64,000 bases of DNA from Idiomarina sp. (GTDB lineage Bacteria; Pseudomonadota; Gammaproteobacteria; Enterobacterales; Alteromonadaceae), in assembly GCF_048260185.1 (NCBI RefSeq), contig NZ_JBLXHB010000004.1, positions 88,622-152,621 of the forward strand, given 5' to 3'. The translations under genes and the position numbers were made by a program. Under the pieces are notes generated by a model, which worked only from the letters and a program-made list of their open reading frames with translations, did not search any database and was not told the origin of the DNA. How positions within the stretch are numbered: the first letter of the stretch is position 1; each line of letters opens with the position of its first letter. Shown here piece by piece: positions 3,582-21,955 of the stretch.

Positions 3582-4574
3582 TTAGTACAGATCCACGCTA
3601 TCGATTTCGCATTCCGCACTACTTATTTTTGCGCTCGTGACCTCTTGATAAGACCCAAATGAAAAGTTGAAATTAAGAGTTTCGCTATCACTATCGTGAG
3701 CATAGAGATCGTGAGACTCATCTCCATAACTTGAGTCTGATTGAGTTGAATACGTGTTTCTACCCTTATATTCAATCTCAACTGTGCACTCGACTTCAAC
3801 GTCTAGGTATGCACCGCCGCTATAATCGGTGTTTACTTCATAGTTAAGCGAAACGTCACAATCATTATAATAATTACCAGAATAGCTTTCGTTACAATCA
3901 ATATCGCCCCCAGTAATTTCAACACAAACTTCAGCGTTTGTTTTGTACTCTGTATCGCAGTCGTCACCACTTACGCCCTGAGCTCTTCGACGCTGCATTT
4001 CAGCAATAGCGGCTTTTTCCAACTCAATTTGCCTTTGAAGCTCTTGCTGTGTCATAGCCTTGCATGAGCTTCCAACTTTCTTGAAACCTCGATTACATTT
4101 CCAGCCACTACCATAAATGTCGATACTCGCGTTTTCGGGAACTTGAACTTTTACACATTTATTGCCGAACTTGTAATAGCCCCTATTGCACTTCCAGCCA
4201 CTGCCGTAAACATCAATCCCCGCGTTTTCAGGAACTTGAACCTTTACACAGGTATTGCCTGATTTGTAATAGCCCCTATTGCACTTCCAGCCACTACCGT
4301 AAACATCAATGCCTGCGTTTTTAGGGACTTGAACCTCTACACAGGTGTTGCCTGATTTGTAATAGCCCCTATTACACTTCCAGCCACTGCCGTAAACATC
4401 AAGACCAGCATTTTCTGGTATTTGAACTTTTTCGCATTTATTGCCTGACTTGTAATATCCTCGATCACACTTCCAACCACTGCCGTATGGATTCTCTGAA
4501 GCATGCTCTGGAAGACTTTGAGACCAGGATAGAGACGCGAAGCACATGCAAAAAATTATTAATAATATTCTCAT
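3582..4574 (-). CDS. secreted Cys-rich tandem-repeat protein
   Basis: 330 aa with a signal peptide (MRILLIIFCMCFASLSWSQS). Carries about 4.7 tandem 31-aa repeats, YGSGWKCNRGYYKSGNxCVKVQVPENAGIDV, with 2 Cys each. A coiled-coil-like segment and an acidic Cys-containing C-terminal domain follow. Confidence 0.7.
   Translation of the reverse strand: MRILLIIFCMCFASLSWSQSLPEHASENPYGSGWKCDRGYYKSGNKCEKVQIPENAGLDVYGSGWKCNRGYYKSGNTCVEVQVPKNAGIDVYGSGWKCNRGYYKSGNTCVKVQVPENAGIDVYGSGWKCNRGYYKFGNKCVKVQVPENASIDIYGSGWKCNRGFKKVGSSCKAMTQQELQRQIELEKAAIAEMQRRRAQGVSGDDCDTEYKTNAEVCVEITGGDIDCNESYSGNYYNDCDVSLNYEVNTDYSGGAYLDVEVECTVEIEYKGRNTYSTQSDSSYGDESHDLYAHDSDSETLNFNFSFGSYQEVTSAKISSAECEIDSVDLY
4053..4487 (-). repeat. 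tandem 93-bp coding repeats (about 4.7 copies)
   Basis: CCACTGCCGTAAACATCAA-type strings recur with a 93-bp period (for example near 4199, 4292 and 4385). This matches the 31-aa protein repeat. Confidence 0.85.
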
Positions 4575-8349: not shown

Positions 8350-8992
8350 TTTATTATGGCCAAGACTATCAGGTAAATCAGATGACGAATCATTAAAGAG
8401 AGATCTTGAATTAATAAAGAAAGCTGATCCCGGTGACTTTGTTGATGTCGCGCTAGGCGAAGCTCGGAGGCTTTACGATCAAGAGCAACAACGAAGGTCC
8501 TCTGCTGACAGTAAGGGTGGACTATATCTTGGTGTCGCTACAGCTTTCCTCGCGTCACTAATCACATTGTCTCCATTAGCAATCGATATTATTGGGAGAT
8601 CAGAATCTGGTCTGTATTCGGCACTGTCGTGGCTAATGGTTATAACGATGGGCATATCAGCTATTGTTGCGTTTCGTTGTATTCTCTGGGCAAAACACGC
8701 ATTGAAAGTAGCAGCCTTTCGAACTATGAGCTGGAGAGATTTACTCAATGTTGGTGATGAAAAAGTTGAGCTGACCTTATTTCGTGACACTCTGAAATGT
8801 CTGCGTCACAATTATGTGGCGACGAATGAGAAAGTGACGAATGTGAAAATGGCGGAAGCACTTTTAAAAAGTGCGTGGTTTTGGCTAATCCTAAGCCTTC
8901 TTGTAAGACTTTTTTATCACCTAATAGAGGGCAGCCCGAGTGGCTCTGAAACTATCATCAATGTAATTAGCATCTGTTCTGAGATGGCGTGA
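8339..8992 (+). CDS. hypothetical membrane protein, third gene of the ATP-grasp operon
   Basis: The ORF track starts at a TTG at 8321; the ATG at 8339 (MNFDLLWPRL...) overlaps the ATP-grasp stop by 11 nt. It has 3-4 TM helices (LYLGVATAFLASLITLSPLAI; WLMVITMGISAIVAFRCILWA; AWFWLILSLLVRLFY). Confidence 0.5.
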   Translation: MNFDLLWPRLSGKSDDESLKRDLELIKKADPGDFVDVALGEARRLYDQEQQRRSSADSKGGLYLGVATAFLASLITLSPLAIDIIGRSESGLYSALSWLMVITMGISAIVAFRCILWAKHALKVAAFRTMSWRDLLNVGDEKVELTLFRDTLKCLRHNYVATNEKVTNVKMAEALLKSAWFWLILSLLVRLFYHLIEGSPSGSETIINVISICSEMA

Positions 8993-10083: not shown

Positions 10084-10797
10084 TTACTCATTTATGGAGG
10101 AATCAATCCTCTGTACCCAAAGGTTTTTAAATTTATGAGCACTGATAACGTGTTTTATATTATCCATCAGCGTATAACCGATCGCAGAAAAAATAGCTCC
10201 AAGCATAAGTAAAGGCACCAGAATACTGTCTAAAAAGTGCTCTCCTTCAATCGAAAATAACTCCCTTATCAACAAACTAAAAAAACCGGACAGAGAGAAG
10301 GAAATACAAATAAGGGCACCAACTAAAAATGTGAGACTAAGCCTTTGGAGAGAGATTGAAGCTTTTTTAATACTCCAAACTTTATTAGACTTGGCTGTTG
10401 GAGCTATTAAAGCTTGCCGCCCCCTTGCGTAAGCCTCAACAGTCGTCAGAGGAAAACGTAAACGTGAAACTTCATCCTCCCCTAGTTCATCGACAAAAAC
10501 ATATCTGGCGTCATAGGCCTCCCAAATTTGCTCTTTTAGAGATCGTATCAACGCAGTATCAGAACTACGGATTATAAAATCATTGATTTCTTCCGAGTCT
10601 GCACTTTTCATAGCTTCCAATGAGGCTATTCGAAATTTATGATGTTCACGCTTTTTCTTTTTCGGATCCCAATCCGCAAGTAATTTTCGAAATCTGAAGA
10701 AAGCAAAGACTGCTATTGAGGTTCCAAGGACTATTATTGCAACATCTGAACCAATGAAATCAGTTTCTTTTATCAAGTTTAGTAATGTATTCAACAA
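10084..10797 (-). CDS. hypothetical multi-pass membrane protein
   Basis: 237 aa. One N-terminal TM (VAIIVLGTSIAVFAFF), a soluble middle region, and 2-3 C-terminal TMs (LTFLVGALICISFSLSGFFSLLI; LVPLLMLGAIFSAIGYTL). Confidence 0.5.
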   Translation of the reverse strand: MLNTLLNLIKETDFIGSDVAIIVLGTSIAVFAFFRFRKLLADWDPKKKKREHHKFRIASLEAMKSADSEEINDFIIRSSDTALIRSLKEQIWEAYDARYVFVDELGEDEVSRLRFPLTTVEAYARGRQALIAPTAKSNKVWSIKKASISLQRLSLTFLVGALICISFSLSGFFSLLIRELFSIEGEHFLDSILVPLLMLGAIFSAIGYTLMDNIKHVISAHKFKNLWVQRIDSSINE

Positions 10798-11322
10798 CCT
10801 ATTCCCTTTGAAGCTGGAGTGATTTAGCTCGCTTATATCTATTTACATTAGTAGAGTATTTTAATAAATATTCTACAATCGTTTAATAAGGTTAGATACT
10901 CAATTCACTTAAATTTGAGGGGGCCCTGACAGTTTCCTCGTCAAAAAATAACGAACACACATTGCGTTGCACTGAAAGATTTAACTCACAGCTCCTAGCG
11001 GCTTGAAGGTTCGATGCCAATAGCAGAGATTGGTATTTTTACGAATAACAAATTTGAACTGGTTCTTTGGTGAGCCGTGTCTAAAAAACTCCTCACCGCG
11101 TTAAGCATTTTACTGTCATTGAAAAAGTGTAAATCGCAAAAAAGTAAGGGTGGCTTACCATGCGGACACTCCAATTTCATATCAGGTGGCAAGAGAGCAG
11201 AAAAATTATAAAGCAATTTAGAATCAATAAGTTATAGAGGACTCTATGTTGCACATTGACTTCTTGTGTTAATTTCTCGTTAACAAAGCTAAGCTATTTT
11301 TTTATTTCTCTTTATTTTTTTC

Positions 11323-13888: not shown

Positions 13889-16800
13889 TTATTTAACGTT
13901 AGCCTCAGTGGATAACCTGGGACGCAAATCAAGAAGATGTACATGAATATAGGTATCACTTCCCAGAGCCTGTTGAACTCTGTCAGACTCAGCAATAAGC
14001 AACGATAACAACTGATCTGCTTTGATCTTGTGTTTCTCAACTGGATGATGCCATTGGCGATCTTTCGTAAGAGTTATCAGCAAAGCTCCAGCCCTACAGT
14101 GTTCAGCCGCCATATATTTTCTGACCAATTGCCCTTCAATTGTATCTAGCAGCTCTTTCGCAGAGCGATTTGCATTACCCAGCTTGAGTTCAATCACAGC
14201 TTCATGTTTCGACAGAACAGAACGCAGACGTATATCGGTTTCCTTCTCGTCAGCCGTTACCGCCTCTTGGTCGACAGTGTAAAGTGAATTTGCGGCGCGC
14301 TTAAGTTCTCGCGCAATTACTCGACGCATTATCTTCTCATCTGATATTAACGCCCAAGCTTCTCTCGGTGAATCGTCGTGTAGTAAAAGTTCATCAAGAT
14401 CAGATAACCGATCCTTCAATAACGCAAACATGGCTTCATTCGTTGAAGCTGGAGCTTCACCAGTTCTATCAAGATCTACTGCTTGAGCTTCATCAAATGT
14501 ATCAGCATCGATCTCTAGTGCCCAATTCTCTGCTGCCACAGCCAAAATGCGATCCTTGAAATGAGCGCACAAAGGATCTGCAGCCATTTCTATCTTGGCG
14601 GCCAAGCCCTCATTTCCTCTCGCGTCAAGCAATGCGCTTACAATGCTATTGCGCGCCTGTTCTGCGTTGTCTCTAGTGTCGGGTGAATAGGACCCTTCGT
14701 GGTGCGCATCGTCCTGTATTCGAACGTGGCGATAGGCCAAACGAAGAAGCCTGAGCAGTAATTGCGGCGTTAATCGTTCGTCACGCAAACTAATTCCGTC
14801 TTGGTCATTCCCAAAGAGTTTGGCTAGCCATGTCACAGCGTCCGATCGCTTAGAAGGTTCAACTCTCTTAACTAGGTCAGTTAGCCGTTCGATCCCCTCC
14901 TGCGGTTCAATCTGCATTAAGGTGGACAACCAAACAAGGCGCATCGAAAACGGCAATTGTTGCTCCAACCTCTGGAGTGCCTGTTCTTGAAGTTTCTTAA
15001 TTTCCGCAGCATTGCCATGCTTAATGATAATCCGTGTGGCTTGCCGAACCCTTCCGGCCATTCCGCTAGTGTCATCGCCACCATTAATATCCTCCCCACC
15101 GTCATCTAGCCAGGACTCCAGTCGCGGTAAAAATAAACAGGCAACCCTTTCAGGCGCATATTCAACTACTTGAAGTAGATTCAAAGAGCCTTGTTCACTT
15201 GACGACCGGTTCAGCTGCCACGAAAACTCATTTCCAAGCGTCCTGTCCACAGCTTTTGGATGTGTGTCTACGAGGTCCTCGAGCCACTTAGGCAGGCCGT
15301 TTAGTTCAATTGGAGCGTAACGCGCGGCTAGCTCAGCTTCGGCATCGCTGAGTTTAGCTTCCCAGCCTGGGGCCTCCGCTTCAGCGTAGATCGCGGCCAG
15401 ACCAAGTTGCCAACGTACAAGAAATGTATTGCGCTCGCCTTCGGACCTTTCGCTGGGAAAAGTTGGATGGTCATCACGCCAGATCTTCATCAGCACCCGG
15501 CGAAGCTTGTCGGCCGTGTCTTGATTGAATTGCTCTTCAATGAATCGCCGGTTCCAGCCTGATGCTCTACTGTCTGCACCATCATGACTCATAGCGCGCC
15601 ACAAGTTCCAAGCTGTGTTCCAGCTTTGCTCCGTCGAAAATGCTTTTTCAGGCTGGTTGGCAACTTCTCGCCAGAACTGAATCCAGCTCGCGCGGCTCTT
15701 GGCCTTACGCCGCTCTTCCTGCTTCTTTTTTTCAGCCTGCTCCTTTTCCCAATGAAGATGCTCTTTTTCGTATTTCGATGGCTTCAGCCAGTCGTCAAGT
15801 CTTTGCACGAATGAAGGTTCATCCACTATGAGGGACCTAAGTCCCTCATAGTGTTTTCTCCTTGTATCACGATCCGGCGACAGACGGATGGCTGCCTCCA
15901 AGAGCATTGCGCGTTCATCCGCATCCCGGGTCGTGTCTCCAAGCGCTTCGCTCACCCAAGTCAGATCCCGGTCCGGTCTTAGCTGAACCGGTCCATCGTG
16001 GATAGTGAGTTCTGCGAGCCGTCTCCAAGGATCTTTGATTTCATGGAGCGACTGCAGCAAAGCGTCCTCAACCCAGAAAAGACGCTCATTGTCCTCTGCT
16101 TTCAGATTGATGAGCTGTTTGCGAAGTGATTTGATCGATTCGTCGTTATAATGGTCTTGGTGGTGTAATCGCAATGCGACTACACTAGCATGAAGCCACT
16201 GATCGTCTTGGCTTATATCCAAGCCGCGTTTACATGTTGCTGCGAGTGCTTCACTGAGATGTGCCCGATCACTGGTAATATGCGGCCACTCTTTTCGCCA
16301 TGTAAGCCCCTCTGAGACAAGCGCAAGGAAGCCGTTACGAAGTTCCTCAAGGTCAGGGAACTCAAGAGACGACCTTGCTATCAGAATTGGAAGTTGCCAA
16401 TTAAAGTCGCCTATATTTCGCTTCCCTTGCTTTATCCATCTAAGGGTCCGACAAAGCTGCTCAACCGACATGTACTTTGGAAAAAGGCGTAGTATGGCAC
16501 CGCATGCTACTCTATCAGGCCAGAGATAATCACCATCAGCTATACAGACAGAAATGCTTTCTAATCTCTCGTCAGCGAGTGCGACTAACGCGTCAATAGC
16601 CATTATACGTTCGACCGCAGTTGCTGAAATGTCCTGAGTTATATCGAATACGATATCTGCACAAGCTTCTATGCGACCAGCTTCTATAAGGCTGATGAGA
16701 ACTTCTCGCACATCCGGATTCTCTACCCCACAACGCCAAATCCTTTCAACTTCTTTTGCCAGCCCATTCGACGCAAATCGATGGACCTGAATGTGAGGAA

Positions 16801-18193
16801 CCTGAAGGCCTCTCCACCCACCAGGGCCGTAACGTTCAGCGTAGGCGTAAAGAGCTTGATTTCGCTGCGTCTGCGTTAACGACTCTGGATCGCCTTCATT
16901 TAGAAGTACAGCAGGCTCATGGTCCCGCAAGAGTTCAAATATCCCGTTTTCTTTCAAGGCTAACCATCCAGCGACTGGCCGCTTGGACGGCTTAACGATC
17001 ATTTTGCTTTTGGTCTCAGCGAAGATAATCCGCTTGAGGGCTCGAAACGGCATGCCATGTTTTCTAAGCGCTATTAGCCGCTCGGTAGCAAGATACTCCG
17101 CGACCGAACGATGATGAAAACGCACTCTGCCATATGAAGCGAAACCAAATAGCGGACGCTCCAGCAGTGCCTTTCGTTCGTTCGGTTGCCAATCGGATAG
17201 GATTACCGCGGGATCAAGAGCTGCCTCTTCGTTAATAGCATCGGACTCTGCACTATGACGAATAGTTAGACGACGTGTCATCTGAACTGCAAGCGCGAGT
17301 CGGCTAGCTCCCTCAATTGCCTTGTCGACAGACAATTCCGCTGGTTCAGGTCTGTATTCGCGAGGAAGTAACTTCACACGAACATTCGTATCGACCTGAT
17401 CGTGATGTGTTCGGATGCGTTTATGCTTACTCCAGTCTGCGCATAACTCAATAAGATCCTGAGGTCTGCGTGCAAACTCTAGGGCATTTCGACGTAGTAA
17501 GTCTTCAAAAAGAAGGTCAGGATGGCTCACTCCCTCATGCCGACAAAAATCGACTATCTGCTCGTCCGACAGCGGCATTAAGCCTACAGACCGCCAATCG
17601 GGCGATTCATTTGGGTTGCTATTGTTATGTTGCTCCCGATGCTCACGCATTGCGATCTTTGCAAATGCATCTTCATTGGATTCCGAAGACGGAGCTGGAG
17701 GAACAGGTAATACACTTCGGACCAGCTGTTCGTCGAAGGGGATTGGTCGTGACGTGATGACGATTCGCGCCCGGTGAAGTTGACCTCCAATACGCTTTTT
17801 CAGTCGCTTAAGCGCGCGTTCAAACGAACCCATCGTCAATTTTAGTTCATCAATCGAGTCCAAAAAAAATGTCGCTATTTCATACTGTGAGGCAAGCCAA
17901 GCATCCAAGCGGGCTTCTTCGTCTACATCTAACAGGCTGACAAGGTCTTCTGTTGCCAATGCGGCTAATTCAACGAAGAATGCAGGCTCTCCCTCATCCC
18001 AAAGGCGCTTTGACTGTTTACGGCATTCGTAGGTTTTTCCTGCCCCAGCCTCGGAAACTATCAGTATACGTTTTGACTGAAGCAAATCATCCCATGTATT
18101 TCCCCGTGACCAGCCCAATCCGACTAAAAAAGACTGTTCGTCGGCATCGGTGACCTTCCCTTCAGGAATATCATTGAAAATCCGTTCTACCAT
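13889..18193 (-). CDS. NACHT/STAND-type P-loop NTPase (1434 aa) with long helical C-terminal region and terminal PD-(D/E)xK-like motif
   Basis: Walker A VSEAGAGKTY, Walker B FFLDSIDEL and IVITSRP follow the NACHT order, starting ~45 aa from the N-terminus. About 900 aa of helix-rich sequence follow. Near the C-terminus, ETDIRL...AVIELKLG...QLVRKY gives a D...ExK...Q..Y arrangement. The gene is visibly more G+C-rich than its neighbours. Confidence 0.7.
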   Translation of the reverse strand: MVERIFNDIPEGKVTDADEQSFLVGLGWSRGNTWDDLLQSKRILIVSEAGAGKTYECRKQSKRLWDEGEPAFFVELAALATEDLVSLLDVDEEARLDAWLASQYEIATFFLDSIDELKLTMGSFERALKRLKKRIGGQLHRARIVITSRPIPFDEQLVRSVLPVPPAPSSESNEDAFAKIAMREHREQHNNSNPNESPDWRSVGLMPLSDEQIVDFCRHEGVSHPDLLFEDLLRRNALEFARRPQDLIELCADWSKHKRIRTHHDQVDTNVRVKLLPREYRPEPAELSVDKAIEGASRLALAVQMTRRLTIRHSAESDAINEEAALDPAVILSDWQPNERKALLERPLFGFASYGRVRFHHRSVAEYLATERLIALRKHGMPFRALKRIIFAETKSKMIVKPSKRPVAGWLALKENGIFELLRDHEPAVLLNEGDPESLTQTQRNQALYAYAERYGPGGWRGLQVPHIQVHRFASNGLAKEVERIWRCGVENPDVREVLISLIEAGRIEACADIVFDITQDISATAVERIMAIDALVALADERLESISVCIADGDYLWPDRVACGAILRLFPKYMSVEQLCRTLRWIKQGKRNIGDFNWQLPILIARSSLEFPDLEELRNGFLALVSEGLTWRKEWPHITSDRAHLSEALAATCKRGLDISQDDQWLHASVVALRLHHQDHYNDESIKSLRKQLINLKAEDNERLFWVEDALLQSLHEIKDPWRRLAELTIHDGPVQLRPDRDLTWVSEALGDTTRDADERAMLLEAAIRLSPDRDTRRKHYEGLRSLIVDEPSFVQRLDDWLKPSKYEKEHLHWEKEQAEKKKQEERRKAKSRASWIQFWREVANQPEKAFSTEQSWNTAWNLWRAMSHDGADSRASGWNRRFIEEQFNQDTADKLRRVLMKIWRDDHPTFPSERSEGERNTFLVRWQLGLAAIYAEAEAPGWEAKLSDAEAELAARYAPIELNGLPKWLEDLVDTHPKAVDRTLGNEFSWQLNRSSSEQGSLNLLQVVEYAPERVACLFLPRLESWLDDGGEDINGGDDTSGMAGRVRQATRIIIKHGNAAEIKKLQEQALQRLEQQLPFSMRLVWLSTLMQIEPQEGIERLTDLVKRVEPSKRSDAVTWLAKLFGNDQDGISLRDERLTPQLLLRLLRLAYRHVRIQDDAHHEGSYSPDTRDNAEQARNSIVSALLDARGNEGLAAKIEMAADPLCAHFKDRILAVAAENWALEIDADTFDEAQAVDLDRTGEAPASTNEAMFALLKDRLSDLDELLLHDDSPREAWALISDEKIMRRVIARELKRAANSLYTVDQEAVTADEKETDIRLRSVLSKHEAVIELKLGNANRSAKELLDTIEGQLVRKYMAAEHCRAGALLITLTKDRQWHHPVEKHKIKADQLLSLLIAESDRVQQALGSDTYIHVHLLDLRPRLSTEANVK

Positions 18194-18280
18194 GCTTTTA
18201 ATGCCACCTATCAGGTTGTCTGTCTATCTTTGAATAAACGAGATACCCAGAGATTGAATAGCGATTAGCTTACTAGAAAC

Positions 18281-18532
18281 TCATTCGCCCCTTTTAAGCT
18301 CACTCATTTTGACTCGGATCTTATCAAAGCAGTCCTCACAAAAATCATAGCTGAATACTTCACCATCATGCTTTGAGCCATAACCGAATTCAGCAGTTAA
18401 CCGGGCAAACGAAGAGAATTCATCTAATCTGTCCAGGTTGTTCTTTTGAAATTCGGGTACCACGCTTTGACCACAAATGTCGCACTTAATATCGACAACG
18501 ACCTTCGTAGTCTTTTGGGCTTTCTTTCTCAT
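18281..18532 (-). CDS. small zinc-ribbon protein
   Basis: 83 aa with the paired motifs CDICGQ...CEDCFDK. Lies 12 nt downstream of the 272-aa gene and 87 nt upstream of the NACHT gene. Confidence 0.45.
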   Translation of the reverse strand: MRKKAQKTTKVVVDIKCDICGQSVVPEFQKNNLDRLDEFSSFARLTAEFGYGSKHDGEVFSYDFCEDCFDKIRVKMSELKRGE

Positions 18533-18544
18533 GGTGTTACCTTT

Positions 18545-19363
18545 TTACTTATTGATTTGTTCATAGCCATCGCCAACTTTTATAAATATCCTTCTTTTTA
18601 CCTCAAAGGGTTTATCAATAAGCGCCTGAACCGGCACAATATCGCTTATGTCGGAAATATCACCAATGTTCAGTTCAAGTGCTCCTTTTGAATTTAAGCA
18701 CTGCTTGTGAACGCCAAAAGAAATCCTAAATTCCATCTGCCATGAATATTTACAATCTTTTGTATACAAGCCGATGGGACCAGAATAATTCTCTAATGGT
18801 TTATAATCGACCAAGCCATAGCCGTCATCTAAAAGCTTAGAGCTAAATGTACCAGGTAGCTTTTTTATTGCTTTGTTTATCCGGTATGAAAACTCGCTCG
18901 GCTTGTTTATAAGTAAAACATGCGAACCGAAATCGAGAAATCGCTTATCAAAGTGTATTTTTCCATCAATTTCATTGGGGATTAAGCCATCTTCATTGTC
19001 AGCAAAAGCCCCCATGCAAAATAGCATTGTATTTTCAGGTCTTGGAAAGTGGGCAGTAAGAACTGCATCAGAGCCTAAATCAACTTCCTCATCATTAACT
19101 TTGATAGATAACGTGGCGTAACCCGAGGGGGTATTTCCTGCTCGCAATATTCCATATACTTTCTCTAACCCATCGGCTCGTAAAGCCAGACTCTCCTCAC
19201 CTTCTAAATTTGAAAAGTACTCAAGACTATTCATGTAGAGCAGGCCTTTCTGCATCTTCAAAAGCCTGTCAATTGAGGCTACTTTGAAAAGTAACCAAAA
19301 GTCCTTCCTGGGTGGCTTCGCGATAAAATTGTGAGGTGTATTTGCAGTTTTCATATGACCCAA
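18545..19363 (-). CDS. hypothetical protein (272 aa), no family recognised
   Basis: Long uninterrupted ORF, co-directional with its defence-type neighbours. The N-terminal region LLFKVASIDRLLKMQKGLLYMNSLEYFSNLEGEE loosely resembles DUF2971-like openings, but I cannot assign it. Confidence 0.5.
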   Translation of the reverse strand: MGHMKTANTPHNFIAKPPRKDFWLLFKVASIDRLLKMQKGLLYMNSLEYFSNLEGEESLALRADGLEKVYGILRAGNTPSGYATLSIKVNDEEVDLGSDAVLTAHFPRPENTMLFCMGAFADNEDGLIPNEIDGKIHFDKRFLDFGSHVLLINKPSEFSYRINKAIKKLPGTFSSKLLDDGYGLVDYKPLENYSGPIGLYTKDCKYSWQMEFRISFGVHKQCLNSKGALELNIGDISDISDIVPVQALIDKPFEVKRRIFIKVGDGYEQINK

Positions 19364-19528
19364 AATCTAGATTAAAACCCAGTTTCATCCTATCAGCTCG
19401 TAGGTTTTTAGCTAAGATTTTTAATGGGTCAAGAGGGACTTTTTCTGCCCCGTTATCACGGACGGTTAAAAATCGGGGTAGAACCCCAGTTTGCTGAAAT
19501 TTTAGGGAAAATCTAAATCGACACGAGT

Positions 19529-20389
19529 TCACTCATACCCACCATCACAATACCATTCGCTCTGCGCTAGCGCCTGAAATAAGGCGGCTTTCCATGAGTT
19601 AGCATCCACACAGGCATACTTTTCGAACTGGTCTTGTAAATGTTGCTTGATATAGCCCCTGCCCATTTCGTTTTTATATTTGCTTAAAATACCTGTGAGG
19701 CAAGATAGCTCATCAGCTGCCTCTATACCGTATCTTTTTTCTAAAGAGTAGCTTTCAAAATGCGCTAGAACTCTCGCTTTGGAGACAGGGTCCCAATTTT
19801 CCGGTGGGTTAACGAAGTATCGAATGGACGGAGGGTCAGAGCGTGAAACCTCAGCATATAACCACTGTTCATTGATTATCTGATTGGATTCGAAATACGG
19901 GTGTAACGTTTGTGTTTCTGCAGATATAGCTACAATATCTCTTTTACCAGTGTTGCAGTCTTTACATGCGGGAACTAGATTTAGAGGAGTGACCGAAAAA
20001 ATGGGGTATTTTGATTTGGGTAGGTAGTGATCTAATGTGGACGCATAGCCTAGAGCACATAAAGGGCACCTACCGTTGGGAGCCTTGGATAGTATTTTGT
20101 CATAGACCTCTCTACCGGGTCTGTTGATTCGAGCTACCTGGTTTGAATAAAGCTCTTTTAGTTCTTCCTTGGTAACATTCCCTACAACTATGTCATTGTT
20201 ATCAGAGTTATCTGCTGGAATTCTGTATAGCTCTTTTACGCTACCTAGCTGGGCATAGTTATATGAAGCCTGTCCAATGCTTGGTGAAACTTCCTCAAGC
20301 CTGCCACAAAGTTGCTCATCTCGGTATCCACGAGCACATCTCTGGAAGAAAGCCTCAGCATTATCAACTGGCGGTATTATTGTTCTCAT
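19529..20389 (-). CDS. ptuB: HNH endonuclease, Septu PtuB-like
   Basis: CPLCALGYASTLDHYLPKSKYP...NLVPACKDCNTGK is a CxxC...DH...N...CxxCN HNH signature. It starts 6 nt after the ATPase gene ends. Confidence 0.65.
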   Translation of the reverse strand: MRTIIPPVDNAEAFFQRCARGYRDEQLCGRLEEVSPSIGQASYNYAQLGSVKELYRIPADNSDNNDIVVGNVTKEELKELYSNQVARINRPGREVYDKILSKAPNGRCPLCALGYASTLDHYLPKSKYPIFSVTPLNLVPACKDCNTGKRDIVAISAETQTLHPYFESNQIINEQWLYAEVSRSDPPSIRYFVNPPENWDPVSKARVLAHFESYSLEKRYGIEAADELSCLTGILSKYKNEMGRGYIKQHLQDQFEKYACVDANSWKAALFQALAQSEWYCDGGYE

Positions 20390-20395
20390 AATTTG

Positions 20396-21955
20396 CTAGT
20401 TTTTATCTCTACTGTTTATCAAGGAGCGGAGCAACGCTTTACCTTCAAACCCGATTTGTCCGTTGAACGAGGTCTCAATTTGCTCATACGACTGACCTTT
20501 CGATACTAGTGAATTAAATAGTTCTAAATATCCTGATTTAGAGACTTCTAGCCCGAAAACGTCTCTAGTTAAGCGACCAACATTCTCTGCGAAAGTTTCT
20601 ATCTCTGGTCGGGAAATATCAAATATGCCTCTCTTTCGCCTTATAACGGAAACACATAATTGCGGAACTTCTTGTAAGACTACAGGAGAATGCGTAGCGA
20701 CTATAGCGACGCCGTTTCTGTTTAAAAGTAAGTCTGATAACGCTCGTGTGAATGCGGACAAAAGTGGCGGATGCAAGTGACTTTCTGGCTCATCAAGAAA
20801 AACTATAGTTTTTTCTTCAACTGACTCAACGAGCTTAGTCATTGTAAGCAAGACTATTGAATGGCCAGAGCTCATTCGATGAAAAATAGAGTATGCTTGC
20901 TGGTTAAAGCGGGTACGATCTTGTTTGTATAAATCAACAAGTTGATTTAACTGCATCTCTTCAAAGTTTAAGTCCGACTCGAGTTTTTTTATTGCCTCTA
21001 ACCAGCGGGCCTCTTTAGCAGACAAGGATAAGCACCTATCTAGGCTAATAACGAAGTCGGAAGCTAGTTCATTTTTTGTTTTCAGGCTCCGCGTCTCTGC
21101 ATTGGAGTCTTTATTGGTTTTTTGAAGACCAATATATTTGTACCTCATGCCGCCCGAGGAGCTTTGCTGGTCCTCGGGCGGTTCGAAGGCGTCAAAAGCG
21201 CTAAAAGATACAGATACTACCCCGGCAAAATAATCCTCATCTAGTTTAGTTTCTAACGGAAGAAAGTTGCCATTACTATAAAATGCACCAGGAATCTTGG
21301 CCTCATCTTCCTCCCTAGCTAACAATGAACTGAGCATATTATTTATGAGCGTTGTCTTCCCCACACCATTTCGGCCGATTAATATATGAACGTTTGAGCT
21401 TGGCATTGACTTAGGTTCTACCTGAAAGGAGAGTTCGACTGCTGAAAAGCCCCCGCTAGCAGCTTGTTTATATGAGAAATCGTACTCACTCAAAGCTGCG
21501 TCGCCCTTAATAATTCTTTGGAACTGATTAGAGATCGTCGAATGGTTTACCATTCTCATTAAAGATGTATTAAATGAATCTTCACTTTCGACGTGTTTAA
21601 GTAATTCGGGGTAATAAATCACGTCTCTTAACGCGGTTAGGGTGTATTGAGCAAGCTCTTGAGGAACTTCCTCCATTAGAGCTTTGTAATAATCTGCGTC
21701 CTGGCCTAATGAAAAGAAACTCTCTGGAAGTTGCTCGAAATGGCTTTCGATGCTTTCTGCTGTTGCTCCTTCCTTTTGTCCAAAAAAGCCAATTTTCACA
21801 CTCCCTACGTCATATCGGTTTGACTCTGAGTCAAAGATAGTGAGTGAGAATAATGTCTTAAAACCGAAATCGTCCCAATTGTCAGCTTGCAAGATTATCT
21901 GGCTTTTCGCGTCGTTAGGTATAGAGGTGCGAGAATTTAGTTTTCGAATGTACAT
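20396..21955 (-). CDS. ptuA: ABC/AAA15-type ATPase, Septu PtuA-like
   Basis: 519 aa. Walker A LIGRNGVGKTTL, signature-like SSGHS, Walker B IVFLDEPESHLHP and a D-loop/H motif (VATHS). The ~190-aa N-terminal extension is as seen in the PtuA/OLD-like ATPase class. Confidence 0.65.
   Translation of the reverse strand: MYIRKLNSRTSIPNDAKSQIILQADNWDDFGFKTLFSLTIFDSESNRYDVGSVKIGFFGQKEGATAESIESHFEQLPESFFSLGQDADYYKALMEEVPQELAQYTLTALRDVIYYPELLKHVESEDSFNTSLMRMVNHSTISNQFQRIIKGDAALSEYDFSYKQAASGGFSAVELSFQVEPKSMPSSNVHILIGRNGVGKTTLINNMLSSLLAREEDEAKIPGAFYSNGNFLPLETKLDEDYFAGVVSVSFSAFDAFEPPEDQQSSSGGMRYKYIGLQKTNKDSNAETRSLKTKNELASDFVISLDRCLSLSAKEARWLEAIKKLESDLNFEEMQLNQLVDLYKQDRTRFNQQAYSIFHRMSSGHSIVLLTMTKLVESVEEKTIVFLDEPESHLHPPLLSAFTRALSDLLLNRNGVAIVATHSPVVLQEVPQLCVSVIRRKRGIFDISRPEIETFAENVGRLTRDVFGLEVSKSGYLELFNSLVSKGQSYEQIETSFNGQIGFEGKALLRSLINSRDKN

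What the first reader, a model, noticed from the sequence alone, without database searches (positions are those of the whole stretch)
18281..19363. Orphan 272-aa protein + zinc-ribbon pair wedged between Septu and the NACHT gene
The two co-directional genes are separated by 12 nt. They sit 165 nt downstream of ptuB and 87 nt upstream of the NACHT gene. Neither has a family I can assign. The small protein has two CxxC pairs. Guilt by association, with defence systems on both sides inside a transposon cargo region, makes this a candidate for an undescribed two-gene defence module or an accessory to one of its neighbours. Its AT-rich composition resembles Septu rather than the NACHT gene.
Basis: inference. 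Interest (0 to 1): 0.6.

Follow-up and report, generated by a model that had tools for sequence, protein, structure and literature searches.

The report
Two unrelated solo genes, not a pair
The two small genes between Septu and the NACHT gene are real, but they are not a conserved two-gene system: the larger one belongs to a big uncharacterised family that looks like an ADP-ribosyltransferase-type single-gene phage-defence candidate, and the zinc-ribbon gene is an independent small protein common on mobile elements.

Summary
Two intact minus-strand genes, A (269 aa from ATG 19354; 272 from TTG 19363) and B (83 aa, two CxxC), lie 12 nt apart, 165 nt after ptuB and 87 nt before the NACHT gene. 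That gene is HyoA (Hypnos/Avs10). Both genes are AT-rich, like Septu.

The "two-gene module" reading is not supported. No B-family gene lies in 64 loci holding A relatives, and no A-family gene lies next to 10 B relatives. Adjacency recurs only in two closely related Idiomarina assemblies. Neither gene flanks other HyoA homologs, and no Septu or HyoA gene lies near A homologs. A terminator-like hairpin and an IS3-end scar separate A from Septu.

A belongs to a large family (at least 664 clusters) absent from Pfam, NCBIfam and PADLOC. Its confident model (pLDDT 90) matches solved structures only weakly, but about half of the matches are ADP-ribosyltransferase-fold proteins. Three weak sequence signals point to DUF2971, the domain of the single-gene Abi system Aristaios.

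Distant A relatives sit between PglX and PglZ in BREX loci and next to DSR2, Wadjet and other defence genes. The 17 closest relatives mostly sit among housekeeping genes.

B is a widespread small zinc ribbon, sometimes fused to HicB or ParS/Xre antitoxin domains.

Best reading: A is a stand-alone ART-like defence candidate and B is an unrelated regulator-like protein.

The parts
18545..19354 (-). Gene A, 269 aa (alternative TTG start at 19363 gives 272 aa). It belongs to a large unannotated family and is predicted to be ART-fold / DUF2971-like. Candidate catalytic residues in ATG numbering are K24 on strand 1, Y40 on strand 2 and Q206-x-E208.
18281..18532 (-). Gene B, 83 aa. It is a four-cysteine zinc ribbon followed by a C-terminal helix, and belongs to a widespread family of small proteins carried on mobile elements.
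18533..18544 (-). 12-nt A-B spacer with an AAGG upstream of B's ATG. Co-transcription in this lineage is likely but inferred.
19474..19488 (-). Terminator-like hairpin followed by a T-run, about 40 nt after the ptuB stop. It separates the Septu transcript from gene A.
19443..19475 (.). Fragment of the terminal inverted repeat of an IS3-family element, marking a rearrangement seam between Septu and gene A.
19529..21955 (-). Context: Septu, with ptuA at 21955..20396 and ptuB at 20389..19529.
13889..18193 (-). Context: HyoA (Hypnos/Avs10), a single-protein STAND receptor.

Best explanation
The locus holds two independent solo genes that mosaic assembly of Tn7-like cargo placed side by side. It is not an obligate two-gene system. 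Gene A encodes a compact one-domain protein of a large unnamed family. I read it as a very divergent ADP-ribosyltransferase-fold enzyme related to DUF2971. It would work like the single-gene abortive-infection system Aristaios or like DarT: silent until infection, then using NAD+ to ADP-ribosylate a nucleic-acid or protein target and halt phage replication or the cell. The candidate active site is K24, Y40 and Q206-x-E208. Gene B encodes a small zinc-ribbon protein that occurs alone on plasmids, transposons and phages. Elsewhere the same domain takes the place of the DNA-binding module in HicB and ParS/Xre-type antitoxins. B is therefore most likely a small nucleic-acid-binding or regulatory protein with its own role. 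What is shown: both gene families exist, they do not co-occur, the model is confident, and distant A relatives sit among defence genes. What is inferred: the ART fold, the active-site residues, defence activity, and B's regulatory role.
For: Independence of the two genes. tblastn and family HMMs find no B relative in 64 A loci and no A relative in 10 B loci. Clustering of neighbours finds no conserved partner around the 17 close A homologs. On plasmids, B relatives are monocistronic in unrelated contexts.

Separation from the flanking systems. A terminator-like hairpin and an IS3 inverted-repeat scar lie between ptuB and A. HyoA homolog loci lack A and B. Avs10/Hypnos senses phage capsid protein and induces cell death when expressed by itself in E. 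coli (PMC13581612).

Defence context. A-like genes lie between PglX and PglZ in BREX loci L021, L033/34 and L081. One is immediately followed by Dsr2 (L041-43). Others lie beside JetC, Orf5/HEC-06, DolB-like and PDC-S49 proteins. Nine of the 10 large neighbours tested are PADLOC hits. Eleven viral or prophage contigs carry the family, and A hits phrog_26561 at 9e-19.

B. Fusions of the B domain match HicB (E 1e-12) and Xre-RES/ParS antitoxin domains (9e-10 and 8e-4).

Against: The 17 closest A homologs sit mostly among housekeeping and signalling genes, and only a handful of their 131 neighbours are PADLOC hits. The 10 defence neighbours of distant members were chosen by size, not at random.

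The A-B adjacency and the 12-nt spacing are kept in two other Idiomarina assemblies, so a lineage-specific functional link is not excluded.

There is no experimental evidence for any member of either family.
Confidence: 0.5

Rival explanations
1. A and B form a lineage-specific functional pair. A would be an ART-like toxin or effector, and B its regulator or antitoxin, co-transcribed and recently recruited in Idiomarina.
For: The spacer is 12 nt with a ribosome-binding-like AAGG. Adjacency is retained in an Idiomarinaceae MAG (MBF38327.1 and MBF38328.1) and apparently in Idiomarina sp. UBA4520. The B domain occurs fused to toxin-neutralising domains of HicB and ParS/Xre antitoxins, and ParS partners an ART-type toxin.
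Against: The families do not co-occur in 64 A loci or 10 B loci. Solo B lacks any toxin-binding domain. In the fusions, the B domain occupies the slot of the DNA-binding module. Shared adjacency at 85-97% identity can be simple descent.
Confidence: 0.12
2. A is a mobile-element gene of the same family but not a host defence gene. It could be a phage or plasmid ART-like protein used for host takeover or anti-defence, or an enzyme with a housekeeping target.
For: The family is present on 11 viral contigs and matches a PHROG. One homolog lies on a conjugative Shewanella plasmid among hypothetical genes. Close homologs sit mostly among housekeeping genes.
Against: A-like genes are recurrently embedded inside BREX and lie directly beside DSR2, Wadjet, Septu and Hypnos in three phyla. 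Prophage carriage is common for defence genes (general knowledge).
Confidence: 0.2
3. A is a defence-island protein with a new fold and an activity unrelated to ADP-ribosylation. The ART resemblance would be only a common beta-alpha arrangement.
Confidence: 0.13
4. A and/or B are accessory components of the neighbouring Septu or Hypnos systems.
For: Only the physical position and the same strand. No terminator-like site lies between B and hyoA.
Against: Loci of HyoA homologs in other genomes lack A and B. The counted loci are L105-L112, L115 and L116; L113 and L114 come from unpublished genomes and are not relied on. A loci lack PtuA, PtuB and HyoA. A terminator-like hairpin and an IS scar follow ptuB. 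Avs10/Hypnos senses capsid protein and induces cell death when expressed alone in E. coli (PMC13581612).
Confidence: 0.05

Closest known systems
Aristaios, a single-gene lactococcal abortive-infection system; 316-aa DUF2971 protein (PMC11381338)
   Same: Both are single-domain proteins of about 270-316 aa with no partner gene, carried on mobile elements. Both show only weak structural resemblance to ADP-ribosyltransferases. The motif order is the same: basic/His residue on strand 1, aromatic residue on strand 2, and K...[QE]xExR near the C-terminus.
   Different: A does not reach the Pfam DUF2971 threshold. It has QxE instead of ExE and Lys instead of the poorly conserved His. It has its own invariant D61/E64 loop and a C-terminal IGDISDI motif. 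No phenotype is known.
DarT of the DarTG toxin-antitoxin defence systems (PDB 7omu, 8baq)
   Different: No DarG (macrodomain or NADAR) antitoxin, or any other conserved partner, lies next to A homologs. There is no significant sequence similarity.
Defence genes embedded in BREX loci, such as BrxU or PARIS in the pglX-pglZ region (from my own knowledge, not checked here)
   Same: Distant A-family members occupy exactly the PglX-PglZ gap in at least three independent BREX-1 loci.
   Different: The window's copy is not in BREX. It sits in Tn7-like cargo between Septu and Hypnos. The family is unrelated to GmrSD or AriAB.
HicB and ParS/Xre (RES-Xre) type II antitoxins, as a comparison for B
   Same: The B-type zinc ribbon is found fused to the toxin-neutralising domains of these antitoxins.
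   Different: B in the window is the zinc ribbon alone (83 aa) and has no neutralising domain. No HicA or RES toxin gene lies next to it.

Membership tests
   0 of 64 A loci hold a B-family gene and 0 of 10 B loci hold an A-family gene. Adjacency is seen only in two close Idiomarina assemblies.
DUF2971 (PF11185) / Aristaios | Sequence match to PF11185 above the gathering score | tested here: not met
   A has no hit at E<=1. Five of 35 family members hit weakly, best E 0.014.
DUF2971 (PF11185) / Aristaios | Profile-profile homology to bona fide DUF2971 proteins | tested here: inconclusive
   hhalign of A2 against 15 DUF2971 proteins gives E 0.0037, probability 9%, over 99 collinear columns. The ESM-Atlas nearest named cluster is DUF2971, score 0.91.
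ADP-ribosyltransferase superfamily | ART core fold | tested here: inconclusive
ADP-ribosyltransferase superfamily | Catalytic [QE]xE / E on strand 5, plus H/R/K on strand 1 and Y or S-x-S on strand 2 | tested here: inconclusive
   E208 is invariant, and K24, Y40 and Q206 are nearly invariant. They lie on the predicted strands 21-26, 38-43 and 208-215. The placement is inferred, not superposed.
DarTG | Adjacent DarG-type antitoxin (macrodomain/NADAR) | tested here: not met
   No conserved neighbour of any kind around the 17 close A homologs. B is a zinc ribbon.
Septu (PtuAB) with an accessory gene | A or B recurs next to PtuAB | tested here: not met
   tblastn finds no PtuA or PtuB in 64 A loci. 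A terminator-like hairpin and an IS scar lie between ptuB and A.
Hypnos/Avs10 (HyoA) with an accessory gene | A or B recurs upstream of HyoA homologs | tested here: not met
   No A or B match by tblastn or HMM in the loci of HyoA homologs from other genomes. The unpublished genomes G800 and G812 are not relied on.
PADLOC candidate PDC-S31 | Match to PDC-S31 models | tested here: inconclusive
   A itself has no hit. Two to three of 35 family members hit at E 4e-4 to 1.5e-3.
Integron gene cassette | attC site directly downstream of the gene | tested here: not met
   No inverted repeat lies in the 87-nt B-hyoA spacer. A crude attC scan is positive only after the Ramlibacter homolog (L008), with further attC-like sites in the small-ORF array downstream of the Rheinheimera one (L004).

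The most novel reading that the evidence does not exclude
Gene A stands for a large family (at least 664 clusters at 90% identity, in Pseudomonadota, Bacillota, Bacteroidota, Acidobacteriota and others) that is absent from Pfam, NCBIfam and PADLOC. The family would be a new branch of ART-fold single-gene anti-phage effectors. It is recurrently lodged in the PglX-PglZ gap of BREX and beside DSR2, Wadjet, Septu and Hypnos.
Probability: 0.4. Interest if true: 0.6.

Novelty: new variant of a known kind. Interest (0 to 1): 0.42.

Why it matters
If A is an active ART-like effector, it adds a widespread and so far unannotated single-gene family to the anti-phage repertoire. It would also give annotation pipelines a model for a gene that now reads "hypothetical" in hundreds of defence islands, including many gut Firmicutes BREX loci. 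It would be a second handle, after Aristaios, on how solo ART-type Abi proteins are kept silent without an antitoxin. The negative result matters as well. Tight spacing and defence neighbours alone wrongly suggested a two-gene system here. The B-type zinc ribbon looks like an unrecognised module that can replace the DNA-binding domain in type II antitoxins.

Tried and rejected
I could not read the contexts of the closest A/B relatives (P0006, P0007, P0083, P0084). Their adjacency rests on consecutive accession numbers only.
- Foldseek of the A model against PDB and BFVD gave nothing at E<=0.001.
- An hmmsearch of the A profile against PDB sequences gave only chance SH3 hits.
- The first hhalign, against 5 DUF2971 proteins, aligned only the C-terminal motif.
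- The A2 profile search of the 5.8-billion-protein set found no Pfam-annotated relatives among the best 120 hits.
- Complex prediction for A+B returned "no answer" (score 0.02). This is neither evidence for nor against binding.
- Rfam found no RNA family in 17900-19800.
- No sigma-70 consensus promoter was found upstream of A.
- tblastn of A against the phage collection found no match. The metagenome scan with B returned one distant locus, without A.
- Literature searches for HyoA/EruA, PDC-S31 and BREX-embedded ARTs gave nothing specific.
- I considered an integron-cassette origin for the window copy and rejected it.

Full report
**Observation.** Two intact, co-directional minus-strand ORFs are present as described.
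- Gene A is 19363..18545 (TTG, 272 aa). Alignment with homologs favours the ATG at 19354, giving 269 aa.
- Gene B is 18532..18281 (83 aa) and carries CxxC at residues 17-20 and 65-68.
- The 12-nt spacer contains an AAGG before B's ATG.
- The gaps to ptuB (165 nt) and to the NACHT gene (87 nt) are exact.
- The upstream pair is Septu. PtuA hits PADLOC at 3e-205 (PDC-M01A) and 3e-190 (PtuA), and PtuB at 4e-98.
- The 1434-aa downstream gene is HyoA, matching NCBIfam NF058534 at 1590 bits against a cut-off of 1200. This is Hypnos, now called Avs10, a STAND receptor that senses the phage major capsid protein (PMC13581612).
- TnsD/TniQ and TniB homologs at 23.5-26.6 kb confirm the Tn7-like setting.
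- GC content is A 39.0%, B 41.7%, Septu 41-43%, HyoA 49.2% and the presumed core flank 50%. The composition remark is correct.

**Are the two genes a unit?** The evidence says no.
- A has 77 homologs in the first search, nearly all about 270 aa and all unnamed.
- A scan of one genome per species returned 52 loci, and IMG/VR returned 11 more.
- Neither tblastn with B nor an HMM of the B family finds anything in these loci or in a Shewanella plasmid locus. That is 64 loci and 884 kb in all.
- Clustering the five genes on each side shows no recurrent neighbour of any kind around the 17 close (42-75% identical) homologs. A is typically a lone gene with its own intergenic spaces.
- B has relatives in 21 of 201 genomes of its taxonomic family. 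None of nine such loci, nor a metagenome locus, has an A-family gene.
- On plasmids, B relatives are monocistronic in unrelated settings. They lie next to tellurite-resistance genes on pCAR1 and next to a mer operon on P. aeruginosa megaplasmids. One lies between tniB/HTH and tniQ of a CRISPR-associated Tn7-like element in Aeromonas.
- There is one exception. In an Idiomarinaceae MAG, the 97%-identical A (MBF38327.1) and the 85%-identical B (MBF38328.1) have consecutive accessions. In Idiomarina sp. UBA4520, both are recorded with the same longest contig length (215,431 bp) and have near-consecutive WP numbers.
- At this level of relatedness, shared adjacency is expected from descent and does not show coupling.

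**Relation to the flanking systems.**
- A terminator-like hairpin with a T-run lies about 40 nt after ptuB (19488-19474).
- It overlaps a 33-nt element (19443-19475) that recurs in five other genomes of the genus and four times in this genome.
- In another copy, this element directly abuts IS3-type OrfA/OrfB. It is therefore a fragment of an IS3-family terminal repeat, a rearrangement scar at the Septu/A seam.
- The published-genome loci of HyoA homologs in other Gammaproteobacteria carry neither A nor B. L113 and L114 derive from unpublished genomes and are not relied on.
- No A locus carries PtuA, PtuB or HyoA.

**What is A?**
- Pfam, NCBIfam and PADLOC give nothing. PHROGs gives phrog_26561, of unknown function, at 9e-19.
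- A profile of 35 diverse members retrieves at least 664 clusters, and none of the best 120 has a Pfam domain. The family reaches Bacillota, Bacteroidota, Acidobacteriota and Campylobacterota.
- Ten columns are invariant across 35 sequences: G37, D61, E64, R158, Y184, K199, E208, R210, D235 and I236.
- The AF2 model is confident: pLDDT 90.2, pTM 0.85. Foldseek finds no PDB or viral match.
- Three weak sequence signals converge on DUF2971:
  - Five of 35 members hit PF11185 below threshold.
  - hhalign against 15 genuine DUF2971 proteins fetched here gives E 0.0037 over 99 collinear columns. The family's K..Y.WQxExR lies on DUF2971's K...ExExR, and in the relaxed alignment K24 lies on the motif-I His.
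  - The nearest named ESM-Atlas cluster is DUF2971.
- I therefore read A as a separate, very divergent ART-like family, at roughly 65-70% for the fold. Candidate catalytic residues are K24 (strand 21-26), Y40 (strand 38-43) and Q206-x-E208 (start of strand 208-215). This residue assignment is inference.

**Is the family defence-linked?** The picture is split.
- Around the 17 close homologs, 131 neighbours are mostly histidine kinases, GGDEF proteins, transporters and metabolic enzymes. PADLOC hits are few: one PDC-S29, one methylase, two PD-DExK, two mad3 and two NucC-like.
- Among distant members (22-30% identical) the association is striking.
  - The gene lies between PglX and PglZ in complete BREX-1 loci: L021, L033/L034 and viral contig L081.
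  - PglX or PglZ fragments flank it in L035, L048 and L039.
  - Dsr2 follows it immediately in L041-L043.
  - JetC, Orf5/HEC-06, DolB-like and PDC-S49 proteins flank it elsewhere.
  - Nine of the 10 large neighbours tested are PADLOC hits. These neighbours were chosen by size, not at random.
- Together with Septu and Hypnos here, this supports a defence role for A on its own.

**What is B?**
- An exhaustive HMMER search finds 205 representatives, mostly 75-110 aa. They share CDxCG ... [WF]GYGS..DG ... C.xC. No Pfam family reaches threshold.
- The model (pLDDT 87) is a zinc ribbon followed by a long C-terminal helix. It resembles only generic zinc ribbons, plus many small phage proteins of unknown function.
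- Rare fusions are informative.
  - P0104 carries a HicB antitoxin domain (6u0i, E 1e-12).
  - P0209 carries the toxin-binding domain of Xre-RES antitoxins (6gw6_B, 9e-10).
  - P0140 carries the toxin-binding domain of ParS antitoxins (6d0h_B, 8e-4).
- In P0140 and P0209 the ribbon sits at the N-terminus, where canonical Xre-RES antitoxins have their HTH. In HicB that module is normally C-terminal (established architecture, from my own knowledge).
- This suggests a nucleic-acid-binding or regulatory module. Solo B has no neutralising domain.

**Verdict.**
- The worthwhile residue is gene A. It represents a big, unannotated, probably ART-fold family with a recurrent position inside other defence loci, and it works most likely like Aristaios or DarT without a partner.
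- B is an unrelated small zinc-ribbon protein of mobile elements.
- A lineage-specific A-B link in Idiomarina cannot be excluded (about 12%).

Noticed in passing
window 19443-19475 (also L089-L091 in the same genome; L064-L068 in other genomes of the genus): A fragment of the terminal inverted repeat of an IS3-family element. Its 27-nt core occurs four times in this genome. In L090 and L091 it abuts IS3-type OrfA/OrfB genes (degraded in L091).
   Followed up: yes
L021:7965-8648, L033/L034:7959-8648, L081:3904-4695: Distant A-family genes lie exactly between PglX and PglZ of complete BREX-1 loci (BrxC, PglX, A-like, PglZ, BrxL-like). PglX C-terminal fragments lie just upstream of the A-like gene in L035 and L048. 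A PglZ N-terminal fragment lies downstream in L039.
   Followed up: partly
L042/L043:7953-12304 (L041 truncated): The A-like gene's stop abuts the start of a full-length Dsr2 (DSR2) gene at 8675. This may be a two-gene transcription unit in Clostridia MAGs.
   Followed up: no
L118 (Aeromonas salmonicida pS44-1) 4001-4288: A B-family zinc-ribbon gene sits between tniB plus an HTH regulator and tniQ-cas of a type I-F CRISPR-associated Tn7-like transposon.
   Followed up: no
proteins P0095 (1411 aa), P0116 (1266 aa), P0177 (1822 aa): Giant proteins with 8-10 tandem copies of the B-type zinc-ribbon domain. Their origin and meaning are unknown.
   Followed up: no
proteins P0104, P0140, P0209: The B-type zinc ribbon is fused N-terminally to HicB or to the DUF2384 (ParS/Xre-RES) toxin-binding domain. 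This would be an unrecognised variant architecture of type II antitoxins.
   Followed up: partly
L056:1721-1981 and L057:1859-2098: The gene right after two B homologs begins with a CsrA-like sequence (MLILTRRIGETL...). I judged this by eye only.
   Followed up: no
L008:8835-8948; L004:10264-10344 and 10748-10834: attC-like hairpins (RYYYAAC...GTTRRRY, strongly folded). One lies directly after the Ramlibacter A homolog, and others lie within an array of small ORFs after the Rheinheimera one. Some family members may therefore travel as integron cassettes.
   Followed up: partly
L069 (Shewanella baltica OS223 plasmid pS22301) 10001-10810: A 76%-identical A homolog lies on a conjugative MOBF plasmid. 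It sits in a run of hypothetical genes beside a DUF5677 protein, and near a RES-domain gene and Tn3.
   Followed up: no
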